From a virus (Duplodnaviria; Heunggongvirae; Uroviricota; Caudoviricetes): a stretch of DNA of 38,548 bases. The stretch is taken from IMG/VR virus record IMGVR_UViG_2563366976_000006; one strand, given 5' to 3'. Shown piece after piece: positions 9,431-35,928 of the stretch. The notes under the pieces were generated by a model. That model made no database searches. It was not told where the DNA came from and saw only the letters and a list, made by a program, of their open reading frames with translations. Both the position numbers and the translations under genes were made by a program. Every line of letters starts with the position of its first letter. Positions within the stretch are counted from its first letter, which is position 1.

Positions 9431-9565
9431 GAAACGTTGCTGGCGTCTGAACTTGTTTCTGGCGTCAGCAAGGTTGAACAACGAGCCCTTGCGAGGCGTT
9501 AGCTCTGTAGTGCATGTCTATGCCGCATGAGATCGCATGATCGTTTGAGGATCGTTTTTGCTAAG

Positions 9566-9590
9566 GCCCGCCAGAACTGGCGGGCTTTTG
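9566..9590 (+). terminator. rho-independent terminator (GCCCGCCAG..CTGGCGGGC TTTT)
   Basis: 9-bp GC-rich perfect stem followed by TTTT after the tum/dinI operon. Confidence 0.6.
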
Positions 9591-9640
9591 CGTAGATCAT
9601 GCAGGTGCATGAAAACCACTACATAAAGCGGGCAGGCGTG

Positions 9641-9659
9641 GCGGGGATACGAGCGCGCG
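9641..9659 (+). other. cos-like cohesive-end sequence (GGCGTGGCGGGGA...)
   Basis: First 13 nt match the 186 cohesive end as I recall it, 14/19 to P2; correct position (after early region, before Q) and orientation. Confidence 0.45.
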
Positions 9660-9675
9660 CTTGCCATCGAACTCT

Positions 9676-9858
9676 TTCTTTATTAGACTCAAAATGCTCT
9701 TTAGTGTAGGAACAATGGTTCCAGCCGGGTGATTAGCCAGGCTCTAATTTATTGTCCATAACAGGGTTGCGAAAGACACACACTCCTCCTTCGCATATCC
9801 TGCTTGGGCAGTCTATGCGAAGGAGGAGTGCATGTCTTTCGCTGTCTTTAGTAAAGGG
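9676..9858 (+). ncRNA. candidate retron msr-msd non-coding RNA (boundaries approximate)
   Basis: Immediately upstream of the retron RT; contains a 72-nt near-perfect hairpin and small msr-like hairpin (GGAAC AATG GTTCC); tentative a1/a2 pairing 9676-9687 with 9847-9858 needs G-U wobbles. Confidence 0.4.
9770..9841 (+). repeat. long inverted repeat / hairpin, candidate msd stem-loop
   Basis: 28-nt arms complementary at 26/28 positions, 16-nt loop containing an additional 4-bp stem. Confidence 0.6.
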
Positions 9859-9860
9859 CA

Positions 9861-10844
9861 ATGCTCGCTGCAATTGTTGCAGCGAGCATATCTGAGATGG
9901 ATATTATGCAGCTTGAAAAAAAATTATGTGAAAAATTCAACCTTACCCCTTTGAAGCTTTCTATCCTCTCATCCAAAGCTCCAAAAAAATATCGCGTATA
10001 TTATATACCCAAGAGAACTTCTGGTCTTAGGGCGATTGCTCAGCCGACTAAAGAGTTGAAGCAAATTCAACGTTTTTTGGTTTCGGAGTTGAAGCCTCTT
10101 TTGCCAATTCATTCATCAGCAATGGCTTACAGATGTGGCATAAGCATTAAGGATAATGCTGAACGTCACAAGAACAATCCATTTATATTAAAAATGGATT
10201 TTCAGAATTTTTTTAATAAAATTAAACCGGAAATTTTTTTTGATAAGTTCAAAAAAATGGATGTTCAACACAACGCCAGAGATGAAATACTTCTGCACAA
10301 TTTTTTGTTTTGGAAGCCAGGGCAAAAAAGAAGTATTACACATATATTGAGCGTAGGAGCACCGAGTTCTCCATTCATTAGTAATTTTGTCATGTTTGAT
10401 TTTGATTCAGCTATCAGTGAGTGGTGTGCTGATTTTGGTATTGTTTATACTCGTTATGCGGATGATATAACATTTTCAACCGCTAGAAAAAATATTTTAT
10501 TCAGTGTTCCTAAAATAGTTAAAAACATGCTTGCTGAGCACGCATCAGGTATTACCATTAATGAAGCCAAGACCATTTTTACATCTAAGGCTCACAATAG
10601 GCATGTTACAGGTGTAACTATTACTACTGATGGTGAATTATCTATAGGGCGAAAGAGAAAAAAATATCTTTTCTCTCTTGTTTTTAAATATAGCAATGGG
10701 AACTTGACAAGTGAAGAAATTTTATATGCTAAAGGACTGATGTCTTATTGCATGCATATTGAAAGAAATATAATAATAAGAATGAAAAATAAGTATGGTG
10801 CGGAAGTTATCAATAAATTTCTTAAGGAAGGTTGTGATGAATGA
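9861..10844 (+). CDS. retron-type reverse transcriptase
   Basis: 327-aa ORF; RVYYIPKRTSGLRAIAQPTKELK motif and YADD catalytic box; start may be 9861, 9897 or 9906. Confidence 0.85.
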   Translation: MLAAIVAASISEMDIMQLEKKLCEKFNLTPLKLSILSSKAPKKYRVYYIPKRTSGLRAIAQPTKELKQIQRFLVSELKPLLPIHSSAMAYRCGISIKDNAERHKNNPFILKMDFQNFFNKIKPEIFFDKFKKMDVQHNARDEILLHNFLFWKPGQKRSITHILSVGAPSSPFISNFVMFDFDSAISEWCADFGIVYTRYADDITFSTARKNILFSVPKIVKNMLAEHASGITINEAKTIFTSKAHNRHVTGVTITTDGELSIGRKRKKYLFSLVFKYSNGNLTSEEILYAKGLMSYCMHIERNIIIRMKNKYGAEVINKFLKEGCDE

Positions 10845-12450
10845 TTCTAAAAAAAGAGTGGATAATGTTTTTTCGGAGTTTATTGGTCTGATTAATGATG
10901 GCGTGCCTGAGGATAAATTAAAATATTCACCTGTATTGAATTTGCTAAATGAATCTTTAAATAAAGACAACTTATACCTTAAGAAAATATCAATTGTAGA
11001 CTTCAAAAGATTAAGGGATGTTATTGTAAATCTTGAAGATGATCTCACAGTTTTTGTTGCTGACAACGGCTATGGTAAAACAACTTTGCTTGATGCGATC
11101 GCAATTTCTTTAAGTTGGCTTCGTTCTAATATACAGAAAAAAGATAAACCTGGGTCGTATATAAGGGAAGTGGATATAAATAACTCAAAAGATGCCTTGT
11201 ATGCATCTATTGCTGCAACATTTAAAGTACAAGAGCTGAATACTAATGTTTTAATCACAAATGCAAAAGATGGTGTGTCTTTTAAACGCAGTAACGATTT
11301 ACAAGAAATTAAGCTGCTAGCAACAATGTACCGCTATGTTAATACGTTCTTAGATAATTCAAGTCTACCTGTGATGGCTTATTATTCAATTGTTAGGTCT
11401 GTCGTTGGTGGTGGTATTGATAATAGAAGAAGAAGCGGTAAGAATAAAGTTTCTTGGTCCAAATTTGATGTGTATGACGATTTCATGTTTGATAGAAATG
11501 ATTTTGGCGAATTTTTAAATTGGCTCATGTTTTTATCGAATAAATCCGCTCATGAGAATCCAGTGGTCACTGATAACCCAGAGTTACTCAGAAAGGAAAT
11601 AGAAAGTATCAATAACACAATTGAACAACTAAGTATTGTTTCTAACATCGATTTTAGTATTATTAATCAGCTAAAGAGTAGTCTTGAAGAGAAAAAAAAC
11701 CAATTAAATAAGTTTAGTAGTGAAGGGTTTTTAAGTTCATCTGTCTTATATAGGAATGTAATAAATGCTATATTGAGATTTTTGCCTGAATTCGAAAGCA
11801 TTAATCTGGTTTATAGTGAGACTGATGTTAAGCTTGTTCTTATCAAGAATGGTATTCAATTAGATGCGCAACAACTCTCACAAGGTGAGAAAACCATACT
11901 TACTCTGGTAGGTGATTTAGCTCGCCGACTTTCCCTTTTGAATCCAGAGCTACAAAATCCATTTGAAGGTCAAGGCATAGTATTAATTGATGAGGTTGAT
12001 TTGCACCTTCATCCAACTTGGCAGCAGAAAATTATAGAGCGGCTATTAACAACCTTTCCTAATGTTCAGTTTGTTCTTTCTACACACAGCCCTCAAGTCA
12101 TATCTACTGTTCCTGCCAGGAGCATAAGGATTTTAGAGGAGGTGGAAGATGAATTTGGTGATATTTCGATAAAAGCTGTTAGGCCCCGCTTTCAAACTAA
12201 AGGGGTGATGAATAGTGATGCATTACTTTATGGAATGGGAGCAGACCCTGCGCCTCCTGTAGAAGAAGTAAAATGGTTGGAAGAGTACAAAAAATTTATT
12301 GAATTGGATCAGTTTGATAGCGATTCAGCGCTTAAACTACGCCAGAATATAATAAGTCACTTTGGGGAAGATCATCCTTTAGTTGTAGAACTCGATCAGA
12401 TGACTTCACTCATGGAGTTTAAAAGAAAAATTAGAAATAAAAAACAATGA
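10837..12450 (+). CDS. retron effector ATPase (PtuA-like, ABC/AAA-type)
   Basis: Walker A DNGYGKTT, Walker B LIDEVDLHLH; start overlaps RT stop by 8 nt. Confidence 0.8.
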   Translation: MNDSKKRVDNVFSEFIGLINDGVPEDKLKYSPVLNLLNESLNKDNLYLKKISIVDFKRLRDVIVNLEDDLTVFVADNGYGKTTLLDAIAISLSWLRSNIQKKDKPGSYIREVDINNSKDALYASIAATFKVQELNTNVLITNAKDGVSFKRSNDLQEIKLLATMYRYVNTFLDNSSLPVMAYYSIVRSVVGGGIDNRRRSGKNKVSWSKFDVYDDFMFDRNDFGEFLNWLMFLSNKSAHENPVVTDNPELLRKEIESINNTIEQLSIVSNIDFSIINQLKSSLEEKKNQLNKFSSEGFLSSSVLYRNVINAILRFLPEFESINLVYSETDVKLVLIKNGIQLDAQQLSQGEKTILTLVGDLARRLSLLNPELQNPFEGQGIVLIDEVDLHLHPTWQQKIIERLLTTFPNVQFVLSTHSPQVISTVPARSIRILEEVEDEFGDISIKAVRPRFQTKGVMNSDALLYGMGADPAPPVEEVKWLEEYKKFIELDQFDSDSALKLRQNIISHFGEDHPLVVELDQMTSLMEFKRKIRNKKQ

Positions 12451-12462
12451 GGAGACTTGAGG

Positions 12463-13131
12463 ATGAAATTTCTTCGAAGGATATATCCTGGCCCTAACGT
12501 GCTAAGTAGTTATGATTTTAATACTCAAACTTGGGATGATGTATCATCATCTGACAAAAAAGATATTTGGGTAGATTTAGTTAAAATGCAAGGCAAAGTA
12601 TGCGCTTATTGTGAAAGGAAAATAAACCTAACAAAAGAGGGGGATAAGCATATTGAGCATTTCAAGCGAAAAGGTATTCATCGCGAATTAACGTTTAACT
12701 GGGAGAATCTGTTTGGTTCGTGTGGGGAAAAACAAAGATGCGGATTCTACAAAGACAAACAAGAATATAATGAGGGTGACCTGTTAAAAGCTGATGAAAT
12801 GGATCCTGAAGATTTTTTTGTTTTTATCTATAGTGGTGATGTTATTGTAAAACCTGAGATAAATGAACGAAATAAAGTAATAGCTGAGGTTACCCTGAGG
12901 GTATTCAATCTTAATCCCGAGAACGGTGGTGTTAAAGCCGAGAGAAGAAATGTCCTCGAGAAAGGCTTAGGCACTATAAAGGGGTATGTTAAGATTGCTC
13001 AAGACTTAATTGATAGTGGTGAGGATGCAGAAGAAGTTCGGCAATATGTTCGGGATGAGTATTATGAAAAAATTTCACAAATGGATTTTAAAACTGCAAG
13101 GAAACATGTTTTTGAAGCATTTCTACCTTGA
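12463..13131 (+). CDS. retron effector HNH endonuclease (PtuB-like)
   Basis: CAYCERK...HIEHF...C-x-x-C pattern; GGAG SD; 12 nt after ATPase stop. Confidence 0.75.
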   Translation: MKFLRRIYPGPNVLSSYDFNTQTWDDVSSSDKKDIWVDLVKMQGKVCAYCERKINLTKEGDKHIEHFKRKGIHRELTFNWENLFGSCGEKQRCGFYKDKQEYNEGDLLKADEMDPEDFFVFIYSGDVIVKPEINERNKVIAEVTLRVFNLNPENGGVKAERRNVLEKGLGTIKGYVKIAQDLIDSGEDAEEVRQYVRDEYYEKISQMDFKTARKHVFEAFLP

Positions 13132-35716: not shown

Positions 35717-35773
35717 CGTTAAAAAACAGTGCTTCTAACATCATGATTTTAAATAGCATAAATTTCAGGCAAC

Positions 35774-35816
35774 AAAAAACCCATCAACCTTGAACCGAAA
35801 TGGCGGGGTTGATGGG
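35774..35816 (-). terminator. candidate rho-independent terminator downstream of ybjL (minus strand)
   Basis: 10-bp stem cccatcaacc/ggttgatggg followed by TTTTTT on minus strand; loop is long (17 nt). Confidence 0.45.
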
Positions 35817-35928
35817 CTCCACAAAATGGGGACATCAAAGAAAAGCAGTGGCACTAATTAAGACTGATGCCCTGCGGAAAAGTTCTGCGGTTGTGCAAAA
35901 AAATTTCATTTTCAGGGCAACTTCAGTT

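What the first reader, a model, noticed from the sequence alone, without database searches (positions are those of the whole stretch)
9676..9889. Candidate msr-msd: 72-nt near-perfect hairpin plus a perfect 13-bp palindrome over the first RT codons
9770-9841 forms a 28-bp stem (26/28 paired) with a structured loop, the size and shape expected for an msd. A separate perfect palindrome (atgctcgctgcaa ttg ttgcagcgagcat, 9861-9889) begins exactly at the first in-frame ATG of the RT and could be part of the ncRNA or a translational control element. An 8-bp direct repeat tctttagt (9698-9705 and 9844-9851) flanks the region. I could not find a clean DNA-level a1/a2 inverted repeat; the best candidate (9676-9687 with 9847-9858) needs four G-U wobbles.
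Basis: seen in the sequence. Interest (0 to 1): 0.6.

Follow-up and report, generated by a model that had tools for sequence, protein, structure and literature searches.

The report
Retron msr-msd RNA gene in prophage

Summary
The sequence features are real. Window 9696-9859 is the msr-msd ncRNA gene of a type I-A retron (RT, PtuA ATPase, PtuB HNH nuclease) sitting in the known cargo hotspot of a P2-like prophage. The 9769-9842 hairpin is the msd stem-loop. The true inverted repeat is 9696-9703 (GCUCUUUA) with 9852-9859 (UAAAGGGC). It pairs 8/8 in 13 related loci and shows compensatory changes. The branching G is 9704 and the opposing G is 9851. The "direct repeat" TCTTTAGT is simply these two G contexts. 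A mapping rule that reproduces Ec78 (144-nt ncRNA, 77-nt msDNA) and Vc95 (95 nt) predicts a 97-nt msDNA here (reverse complement of 9754-9850), about 93 nt after the Ec78/Ec83-type 4-nt trimming. The perfect palindrome 9861-9889 lies outside the ncRNA, and the homologous RT start is ATG 9906, so it most likely sits upstream of the RT coding sequence. A hairpin of unrelated sequence occupies the same place in 12 of 13 relatives, so it is a conserved RNA structure whose role (attenuator or stabiliser) is unproven. The RT is 45% identical to Ec78 RT. Verdict: new member of a known kind, low to moderate interest.

The parts
9661..9689 (+). Predicted sigma-70 promoter of the ncRNA/retron operon: -35 TTGCCA (9661-9666), 17-nt spacer, -10 TAGACT (9684-9689). 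The predicted start is at about 9696.
   Evidence: Consensus scan. The same TTGnnn-17-TAnnnT-6 nt-a1 register is present in 10 of 13 related loci and shifted by 1-2 nt in the other 3. Prediction only; no transcript data.
9696..9703 (+). 5' inverted repeat (a1 in the Eco7 papers): GCUCUUUA.
   Evidence: Pairs with 9852-9859 in the MFE folds. 8/8 paired in 13 loci, with GC/AU/UA/GU at the outer pair and UA/CG/UG at the third pair.
9704..9704 (+). Predicted branching (priming) G, in the conserved UUUAG motif.
   Evidence: Invariant in 13 loci. [quoted passage not shown] Unpaired at the end of the a1/a2 stem in the MFE. The 2'-5' priming itself is inferred.
9709..9722 (+). msr stem-loop I (GGAAC/GUUCC).
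   Evidence: MFE fold. Variable in length among relatives.
9723..9743 (+). msr stem-loop II (AGCCGGGUGAUUAGCCAGGCU), the RT-bound stem-loop in Ec78.
   Evidence: Rfam msr alignment. 100% paired in 12 loci with one covarying pair. Equals rU27-rU48 of Ec78, seen bound to RT by cryo-EM (PMC12819146).
9754..9850 (+). msd: the RNA template for msDNA. The predicted msDNA is the reverse complement, 97 nt: 5'-TAAAGACAGCGAAAG...GTTATGGAC-3'. By analogy, the first 4 nt (TAAA) are removed.
   Evidence: The mapping rule runs from the G of UUAUUG to the base 5' of the opposing G. It gives 77 nt and a 144-nt ncRNA for Ec78 (published values) and 95 nt for Vc95. The DNA fold is -37.8 kcal/mol, z -12.7.
   Evidence: 22 of 28 helix pairs show compensatory changes across 12 loci. 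The two C.A mismatches in RNA become G.T wobbles in the msDNA.
9851..9851 (+). Opposing G, facing the branching G. The base 5' of it (A9850) is the first templated position.
   Evidence: A G in all 13 loci. [quoted passage not shown]
9852..9859 (+). 3' inverted repeat (a2): UAAAGGGC.
9861..9889 (+). Trailing stem-loop (perfect 13-bp palindrome, UUG loop) between a2 and the RT start. It is outside the a1-a2 ncRNA.
   Evidence: -22.6 kcal/mol, z -6.5. A hairpin of unrelated sequence is in the same position in 12 of 13 loci and in the Rfam STnc400 consensus. Function is inferred.
9906..10844 (+). Retron reverse transcriptase, 312 aa from the homologous start. In-frame alternatives are ATG 9897 and ATG 9861. 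Carries NAERH, VTG and YADD motifs.
   Evidence: PADLOC RT_I-A 1.5e-131, with the profile starting at ORF residue 16. NCBIfam retron_St85_RT 316 bits, above the cutoff of 235. N-termini of relatives align to M at 9906. Motifs are visible in the translation.
10837..12450 (+). PtuA-type ATPase effector (the start may be 10795).
   Evidence: PADLOC PtuA 3.6e-189 and ATPase_I-A 9.5e-161. NCBIfam PtuA 477 bits, below the cutoff of 500. RefSeq annotation of the identical locus.
12463..13131 (+). PtuB HNH nuclease effector.
   Evidence: PADLOC PtuB 8.2e-116. NCBIfam PtuB 155 bits, above the cutoff of 150.

Best explanation
Window 9696-9859 is the msr-msd non-coding RNA gene of a type I-A retron of the Ec78/Ec83/Vc95 family. 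It is the first element of an ncRNA-RT-ptuA-ptuB cassette carried as cargo in the variable hotspot of a P2-like prophage, between the replication gene region and the portal gene. Proposed working, with shown and inferred steps marked. A sigma-70 promoter (9661-9689) starts transcription at about 9696 (predicted). The 8-nt ends (9696-9703 and 9852-9859) pair and place G9704 opposite G9851 (structure shown by folding and covariation). The RT binds the msr stem-loops and primes cDNA from the 2'-OH of G9704. It copies 9850 back to about 9754 and makes a 97-nt msDNA whose core is the 9769-9842 hairpin (inferred by homology; the rule reproduces the Ec78 and Vc95 lengths). RNase H removes the template. 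As in Ec78/Ec83, the first four nucleotides (TAAA) are probably removed at the published ExoVII cleavage site, which debranches the DNA (inferred). The msDNA hairpin then serves as the spine on which PtuA/PtuB are held inactive. Phage nucleases that destroy the msDNA release them, leading to tRNA cleavage and abortive infection (literature on Ec78, not tested here). The palindrome 9861-9889 is a separate, structurally conserved trailing stem-loop in the leader of the RT mRNA. It most likely marks or stabilises the ncRNA/mRNA boundary, as a leaky attenuator or as an end-protecting hairpin once RNase H severs the transcript. It is unlikely to be coding sequence.
For: The three proteins downstream are retron RT_I-A (1.5e-131), PtuA (3.6e-189) and PtuB (8.2e-116); NCBIfam agrees. 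Rfam msr matches 9696-9760 (47 bits, E 4.5e-7). STnc400, the Salmonella St85 retron RNA region, matches 9762-9898 (E 1.5e-9). The ncRNA aligns base by base with Ec78 from strain ECONIH5. The landmarks published for Ec78 are reproduced exactly by the same rule: 144-nt ncRNA, 8-nt repeats, SL II U27-U48, template end G59, msDNA dT1-dA4 trimmed, opposing G. The rule also gives 95 nt for Vc95. Covariation on 12 loci: 97.2% of cells paired against 43-49% when partners are slid, 25 of 43 pairs with compensatory changes, 0/500 shuffles as high, and a1/a2 100% paired. The promoter is in a fixed register in 13 loci. The RNA and DNA folds are strongly non-random. A trailing hairpin is present in 12 of 13 loci with unrelated sequences, z -2.2 to -7.2. 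Retrons in this P2 hotspot are documented (PMC9122126), and the same position holds two other type I-A retrons in other E. coli.
Against: No expression, msDNA or transcript data exist for this locus; every biochemical step is by analogy. The Rfam msr score (47) is below the gathering score (52) and STnc400 (54.6) is below 80. The RT is only 45% identical to Ec78 RT, so termination point, trimming and trigger could differ. The 3' end of the msDNA (9754) is an extrapolation of +/- a few nt. The trailing hairpin has no T-run in this window, so it is not a canonical terminator, and its function is open. One relative (L006) lacks it.
Confidence: 0.92

Rival explanations
1. The ncRNA has the boundaries the first reader proposed: a1/a2 = 9676-9687 with 9847-9858, and a branching G near 9686.
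For: The 12 positions do pair in this window (8 Watson-Crick + 4 G-U) and 11/12 in the closest relative L001. A TTAG motif is present at 9683-9686.
Against: The 5' arm lies between the -35 and -10 boxes of the conserved promoter and includes part of the -10. Pairing falls to 3-9 of 12 in the other 11 loci, while the alternative stem is 8/8 in all. The Rfam msr model and the Ec78 homology both place the branching G at 9704. The 3' arm would cover the opposing G and the first templated bases.
Confidence: 0.02
2. The palindrome 9861-9889 is translated: the RT starts at ATG 9861 (327 aa, as RefSeq annotates WP_235835336.1), and the hairpin regulates initiation at that codon.
For: ATG 9861 is the first in-frame ATG of the ORF. 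PGAP annotates this start in strain N10. The 327-aa form exists in databases.
Against: The PADLOC RT_I-A profile starts at ORF residue 16. RTs of L001 and L002 align from M at 9906 with no extension. Relatives have the hairpin in non-coding leader, with a stop codon in frame in L001. ATG 9861 is buried in a -22 kcal/mol stem, sits 1 nt after a2, and has no properly spaced Shine-Dalgarno. The 312-aa call is the commonest in public data, 72 contigs against 21. A ribosome at 9861 would occlude a2.
Confidence: 0.08
3. The trailing hairpin is a leaky transcription attenuator or 3'-end former. It makes ncRNA more abundant than the RT-ptuAB mRNA.
For: The hairpin follows a2 directly in 12 of 13 loci. 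A T-run follows it in about half of them (L017, L013, L004, L014, L009; partly L015 and L001). There is no room for a separate RT promoter downstream. Salmonella STnc400 is detected as a discrete RNA of about 190 nt (PMC2515195), and its Rfam model ends with this hairpin.
Against: In this window, and in L002, L007, L010 and L012, no T-run follows the stem. The terminator scan finds nothing here.
Confidence: 0.3
4. The trailing hairpin is an insulator or stabiliser for the downstream mRNA. After RNase H destroys the msd template, the RT-ptuAB mRNA begins just before this stem, which protects its new 5' end. It may also keep ribosomes and a2 from interfering with each other.
For: In the five E. 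coli loci the 3' edge of the hairpin is a constant 16-17 nt before the RT ATG, despite unrelated sequences and stem lengths of 7-14 bp. Its 5' edge is 0-8 nt after a2.
Against: Purely inferential. The spacing is looser (20-31 nt) in distant loci, and L006 lacks the hairpin.
Confidence: 0.3
5. The long hairpin is an independent element unrelated to reverse transcription: a trans-acting sRNA (STnc400-like), a terminator, or a repeat palindrome.
For: The best Rfam hit by E-value is the sRNA family STnc400.
Against: STnc400 lies between STM3844 and STM3845. From my own knowledge this is the Salmonella St85 retron locus, so the family would itself be a retron ncRNA. No T-run follows the hairpin. 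It is flanked by a1/a2 and the G contexts in 13 loci. The Ec78 equivalent was seen as msDNA by cryo-EM.
Confidence: 0.02

Closest known systems
Retron-Eco7 (Ec78), type I-A, E. coli ECONIH5
   Same: Same operon (ncRNA, RT, PtuA, PtuB). Same ncRNA plan: 8-nt a1/a2, UUUAG branching G facing an opposing G, SL I, a near-identical SL II, the UUAUUG termination context, and the conserved stem base GCGAAAG/CUUUCGC.
   Different: RT 45% and PtuA 34% identical. The msd is 97 nt against 77 nt, with about 33 stem pairs against 22. The first four msDNA nucleotides are TAAA against TTGA. The genomic site is the P2 prophage hotspot against an IS-flanked island. The trailing hairpin has a different sequence and no T-run.
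Retron-Vch1 (Vc95), Vibrio cholerae
   Same: Same family. The msd length class is similar (95 against 97 nt). msr passes the Rfam threshold at 78.6 bits, and the same STnc400-type msd plus trailing hairpin is present.
   Different: RT 46% identical. Different host. Longer spacer between hairpin and RT start.
Uncharacterised type I-A retrons in the same P2 hotspot (E. coli FORC_082 = L001; AREA_497 = L002)
   Same: Identical insertion site. ncRNA about 85% (L001) and 75-77% (L002) identical to the window. msd 96 and 99 nt.
   Different: RT only 61% and 55% identical. Nucleotide similarity stops at 9856, within a2. The trailing hairpins are unrelated in sequence.
Retron-Eco4 (Ec83)
   Same: Same RT subgroup and operon type. 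Its msDNA is cleaved between nucleotides 4 and 5 (PMC6868368).
   Different: 83-nt msDNA. Its sequence was not retrieved here, so no direct comparison was made.
Retron-Sen2 (St85) ncRNA / Rfam STnc400 (RF02058)
   Same: The long msd hairpin, the UAGUAAAG(A/G)G a2 context and the trailing hairpin all align to the model. NCBIfam places the RT in the 'retron St85 family'.
   Different: The score of 54.6 is below the gathering score of 80. From my own knowledge, St85 is type II-A with a different effector.
Intrinsic (Rho-independent) terminators
   Same: The trailing element is a GC-rich perfect stem. In several relatives a T-run follows it.
   Different: No T-run in this window, and it is not called by the terminator scan.

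Membership tests
Retron (type I-A) msr-msd ncRNA | Adjacent retron-clade reverse transcriptase with NAXXH, VTG and YADD motifs, on the same strand | tested here: met
   PADLOC RT_I-A 1.5e-131. NCBIfam retron_St85_RT 316 bits against a cutoff of 235. NAERH, VTG and YADD are visible in the translation. The motif definition is from PMC11974896.
Retron (type I-A) msr-msd ncRNA | Inverted repeats (a1/a2) closing the ncRNA | tested here: met
   9696-9703 with 9852-9859: 7 Watson-Crick + 1 G-U. 8/8 paired in 13 loci with compensatory changes.
Retron (type I-A) msr-msd ncRNA | Conserved priming guanosine after UUA at the inner end of the a1/a2 stem, facing an opposing G (Eco7-type) | tested here: met
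   G9704 in UUUAG and G9851 are both invariant in 13 loci. This is positional evidence only.
Retron (type I-A) msr-msd ncRNA | msr stem-loops matching the curated family model (Rfam RF00170) | tested here: inconclusive
   47.0 bits, E 4.5e-7, full-length match, but below the gathering score of 52. Relatives score 45.9-78.6. SL II is 100% paired.
Retron (type I-A) msr-msd ncRNA | Long msd stem-loop between msr and a2, conserved as structure | tested here: met
   The helix is 95.7% paired, and 22 of 28 pairs have compensatory changes.
Retron (type I-A) msr-msd ncRNA | Type I-A effectors: PtuA ATPase and PtuB HNH nuclease downstream of the RT | tested here: met
   PADLOC PtuA 3.6e-189 and ATPase_I-A 9.5e-161; PtuB 8.2e-116 and HNH_I-A 1.4e-58. 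NCBIfam PtuB is above its cutoff. PtuA at 477 bits is just below 500.
Retron (type I-A) msr-msd ncRNA | Production of 2'-5' branched (then debranched) multicopy ssDNA | not testable with these tools
   Needs msDNA extraction and sequencing.
Retron-Eco7 (Ec78) itself | Same RT and msd (77-78-nt msDNA, 144-nt ncRNA) | tested here: not met
   RT 45% identical. Predicted ncRNA 164 nt and msDNA 97 nt. This is a different retron of the same type.
Rfam STnc400 (RF02058) | Score at or above the gathering threshold | tested here: not met
   54.6 bits against 80. The match is full-length and structural (msd hairpin plus trailing hairpin).
Intrinsic terminator (for 9861-9889) | GC-rich stem followed directly by a T-run | tested here: not met
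   The stem is present. The tail ATATCTGAGA has no T-run, and the scan makes no + strand call.
P2-like prophage hotspot cargo | Located in the variable locus of a P2-like prophage, with the conserved backbone ending at the junction | tested here: met
   The locus lies between the replication endonuclease/DinI-like genes and the portal gene. 1,274 other E. coli records match only 9600 to about 9675. Phages such as Fels-2 match only to 9660. The hotspot is described in PMC9122126.

The most novel reading that the evidence does not exclude
The trailing stem-loop right after a2 (here the perfect palindrome 9861-9889) may be a conserved, so far undescribed module of the Ec78/Vc95/St85 retron clade. 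[quoted passage not shown] One version: a leaky attenuator sets a high ratio of ncRNA to RT mRNA. The other version: a 5'-end-protecting hairpin stabilises the RT-ptuAB mRNA that remains once RNase H has severed a transcript used as template. The constant 16-17 nt between its 3' edge and the RT start in five E. coli loci with unrelated hairpin sequences would then be functional. I found no description of such an element in the retron papers I searched.
Probability: 0.35. Interest if true: 0.4.

Novelty: new member of a known kind. Interest (0 to 1): 0.25.

Why it matters
It corrects and completes the annotation of a defence cassette that public records leave half-annotated. The ncRNA is not annotated, a spurious pseudogene overlaps its promoter, and the RT start is called three different ways. 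[quoted passage not shown] Its 97-nt msDNA stem is about 10 bp longer than that of Ec78, whose msDNA length sets how PtuA/PtuB are scaffolded. The conserved trailing hairpin and the fixed promoter register are small, testable additions to the anatomy of type I-A retrons. None of this would surprise a retron specialist.

Tried and rejected
2. Identity with a named retron: not Ec78 (45% RT identity, different msd), and the predicted length fits neither Ec83 nor Vc95. Ec83 itself was not recovered by blastn of the ncRNA.
3. Literature search by protein accessions of this locus: no paper found.
4. Search for a published description of a terminator or hairpin between msd and RT: nothing relevant found.
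5. Terminator reading of the palindrome in this window: rejected for lack of a T-run.
6. DNA operator reading of the palindrome: considered and rejected, because relatives have palindromes of unrelated sequence at the same place. That fits an RNA structure, not a shared protein site.
7. miRNA-family Rfam hits on the hairpin (mir-2778 and others): generic long-hairpin matches far below threshold, ignored.
8. PtuA start: the 551-aa ORF (10795) against the PGAP start (10837) is not resolved.
9. The genome-contig scan with the RT returned only 11 distant loci at about 50% identity. No building of a dedicated covariance model was attempted, because the RNAalifold and pair counts were already decisive.
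Full report
OBSERVATION. All the sequence features exist.
- Hairpin: the arms 9770-9797 and 9814-9841 pair at 26 of 28 positions. The repeat finder extends the inverted repeat to 9769-9803/9808-9842 (35 nt, 89%).
- Palindrome: 9861-9873/9877-9889 is perfect, with a 3-nt loop. It is the only perfect short-loop inverted repeat of 13 bp or more in the whole 38.5-kb window.
- Folding: RNA 9660-9900 gives -110 kcal/mol, z -9.3. The ncRNA proper, 9696-9859, gives -81 kcal/mol, z -8.6.

CONTEXT. The ORFs immediately downstream score as follows.
- Retron RT: PADLOC RT_I-A 1.5e-131; NCBIfam retron_St85_RT 316 bits against a cutoff of 235.
- PtuA-type ATPase: PADLOC 3.6e-189.
- PtuB HNH nuclease: PADLOC 8.2e-116; NCBIfam above its cutoff.

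This is the type I-A retron architecture. The cassette sits in a P2-like prophage, between the replication endonuclease/DinI-like genes and the portal and terminase genes on the opposite strand. The 301 bases around the finding are 100% identical in only 2 of 5,426 complete E. coli genomes. Another 1,274 records match only 9600 to about 9675, which is the conserved phage backbone. Phages such as Fels-2 match only to 9660. This is the P2 hotspot of variable cargo, which is already known to carry retrons (PMC9122126). Two other, different type I-A retrons occupy exactly the same site in E. coli FORC_082 (L001) and AREA_497 (L002).

WHAT THE ELEMENT IS. Rfam's retron msr model matches 9696-9760 end to end (47 bits, E 4.5e-7, just under the gathering score of 52). 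The STnc400 model matches 9762-9898 (E 1.5e-9). STnc400 was defined between STM3844 and STM3845 of Salmonella (PMC2515195). From my own knowledge that is the St85 retron locus, so the family would itself be a retron RNA.

A distant blastn of the ncRNA recovered strain ECONIH5, the source of the structurally solved Ec78 retron (PMC12819146). I anchored every locus on three landmarks:
- the first UUUAG;
- the G of UUAUUG;
- the G before U(A/G)AAG(A/G)G.

For Ec78 this rule reproduces the published landmarks exactly: a 144-nt ncRNA, 8-nt repeats, SL II at U27-U48, the template end at G59, a 77-nt msDNA whose first four nucleotides T..A are trimmed, and a branching G opposed by a G. For Vibrio cholerae ATCC 14035 it gives 95 nt, the size in the name Vc95.

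Applied to the window, the rule gives:
- a1 = 9696-9703 (GCUCUUUA)
- branching G = 9704
- SL I = 9709-9722
- SL II = 9723-9743
- template = 9754-9850
- opposing G = 9851
- a2 = 9852-9859 (UAAAGGGC)
- ncRNA = 164 nt
- msDNA = 97 nt beginning TAAA

The MFE fold finds the same a1/a2 stem without any prior, and leaves G9704 unpaired at its inner end.

COVARIATION. An alignment of 12 ncRNAs (window, L001, L002, Ec78, L017, Vc95 and six MAGs or genomes with about 50% identical RTs) gives a consensus of three helices. 97.2% of cells are paired, against 43-49% when partners are slid by 1-3 columns. 25 of 43 pairs have compensatory changes. No shuffle in 500 reaches the observed pairing or covariation score. 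The a1/a2 helix is 100% paired, with GC, AU, UA and GU at its outer pair and UA, CG and UG at its third pair. In the msd helix, 22 of 28 pairs covary.

As DNA, the predicted msDNA folds at -37.8 kcal/mol (z -12.7). The two C.A mismatches of the RNA hairpin become G.T wobbles in the DNA, so the DNA form is fully paired.

(i) The proposed a1/a2 is not the functional one. A sigma-70-like promoter lies at 9661-9689: TTGCCA, 17 nt, TAGACT. The same TTGnnn-17-TAnnnT-6 nt-a1 register is present in 10 of 13 loci and shifted by 1-2 nt in the other three. The transcript therefore most likely starts at the first base of a1. Its pairing decays to 3-9 of 12 in all but the closest relative, while the true stem is 8/8 everywhere.
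(ii) The direct repeat TCTTTAGT does not flank the element. Its copies are the contexts of the branching G (CUCUUUAG) and of the opposing G (GUCUUUAG). The second copy also encodes the first msDNA bases.
(iii) The palindrome probably does not cover RT codons. The PADLOC profile begins at ORF residue 16. The RTs of L001 and L002 align from the methionine at 9906. L001 has an in-frame stop just upstream of its start. ATG 9861 sits one base after a2, buried in a -22 kcal/mol stem, without a spaced Shine-Dalgarno. Public annotations disagree on the length (312, 315 and 327 aa), and 312 aa is the commonest.

THE PALINDROME. In 12 of 13 loci the short spacer between a2 and the RT start holds a strong hairpin (z -2.2 to -7.2) that starts 0-8 nt after a2. 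The sequences are unrelated: window AUGCUCGCUGCAA, L001 AAAGCGCUAUG, L002 GGCCCGC, Ec78 GCCCGGCGC, Vc95 AACAACCCAAGU. The STnc400 consensus contains the same second hairpin. Conservation of structure without sequence argues for an RNA-level role and against a shared protein operator.

About half of the loci have a T-run after the stem, which looks like a terminator. This window does not. In the five E. coli loci the 3' edge of the hairpin is a constant 16-17 nt from the RT ATG. I consider two readings about equally likely:
- a leaky attenuator or 3'-end former that makes ncRNA outnumber RT mRNA;
- an insulating, end-protecting stem for the RT-ptuAB mRNA that remains after RNase H severs a used template.

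I found no description of this element in the papers searched. It is a modest, testable addition.

MECHANISM. The structure and homology are shown here. The biochemistry is inferred from Ec78/Eco7.
- The RT primes on the 2'-OH of G9704 and copies 9850 to about 9754.
- RNase H removes the template.
- The first four nucleotides are removed at the ExoVII site, which debranches the DNA.
- The msDNA hairpin is the spine that holds four PtuA and two PtuB inactive.
- Phage nucleases (T5 D15, T3 exonuclease) degrade the msDNA and release PtuAB.
- tRNA-Tyr is cleaved and infection aborts (PMC12819146, PMC12673091, PMC11974896).

COMPARISON AND NOVELTY. The RT is 45% identical to Ec78 RT, 61% to L001 and 55% to L002. 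PtuA is 34% identical to Ec78 PtuA. The msd is 20 nt longer than in Ec78. No paper mentions this locus's protein accessions. It is therefore an uncharacterised member of a known kind, not a new kind. Interest is low to moderate: the finding is correct and now precisely delimited, but unsurprising.

Noticed in passing
window 9600-9860 vs L001 4501-4757: Between this retron and the FORC_082 one, the ncRNA is about 85% identical at the DNA level, but the RT is only 61% and PtuA 55% identical at the protein level. Nucleotide similarity stops abruptly at 9856, within a2. This suggests either much stronger constraint on the ncRNA or a recombination joint at the ncRNA/RT boundary.
   Followed up: partly
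L016 4003-4142 (E. coli O127:H6 E2348/69): An Ec78-like retron remnant. The msr and the trailing hairpin are intact, but the whole msd stem-loop is cleanly deleted (GCGAAAG joined directly to UAAAGAGU), and the RT is truncated to a 133-aa ORF followed by pseudogenes.
   Followed up: partly
L014 2803-2925 (Cellvibrionaceae MAG): A relative whose msd is only 37 nt with an 8-bp hairpin, while its a1/a2, branching G, promoter and trailing terminator-like hairpin are intact. It is either a minimal msd or a decaying retron.
   Followed up: no
window 9779-9780 / 9831-9832: The two mismatches of the RNA hairpin (C.A, A.C) become G.T wobble pairs in the complementary msDNA, so the DNA product is fully paired while its RNA template is not.
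   Followed up: yes
window 9527-9709 and 9861-10844 (via L003, strain N10): RefSeq annotation of the identical locus has no ncRNA feature. It has a 'hypothetical protein, internal stop' pseudogene lying over the promoter and a1. The RT is annotated from ATG 9861. Other records call the same RT at 312 or 315 aa.
   Followed up: yes
window 10795-10844: The PtuA start is ambiguous. The ORF from ATG 10795 overlaps the RT by 50 nt (551 aa), while PGAP uses ATG 10837 (537 aa). The PADLOC profile aligns from ORF residue 10. The 537-aa form scores 477 bits, just under the NCBIfam PtuA cutoff of 500. The L001 homologue aligns from about residue 16.
   Followed up: partly
window 9560-9591 and 9660-9675: A GC-rich hairpin followed by TTTT (GCTAAGGCCCGCCAG/CTGGCGGGCTTTTGC) closes the upstream phage genes. 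The conserved P2-type backbone ends at 9660-9675, so the -35 box of the retron promoter (9661-9666) sits right at the backbone/cargo junction.
   Followed up: partly
window 9932-9903, minus strand: A promoter-like site (TTCACA, 18 nt, CATAAT; 10/12) lies on the opposite strand inside the 5' end of the RT gene. It points back towards the trailing hairpin and the msd. This is a consensus match only.
   Followed up: no
window 35771-35849, minus strand: A full-length RybB sRNA gene (105 bits) is the only Rfam hit above threshold in the window. RybB is a chromosomal enterobacterial sRNA (my own knowledge), which suggests the window runs past the prophage end into host chromosome. No tRNA gene is present.
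   Followed up: no
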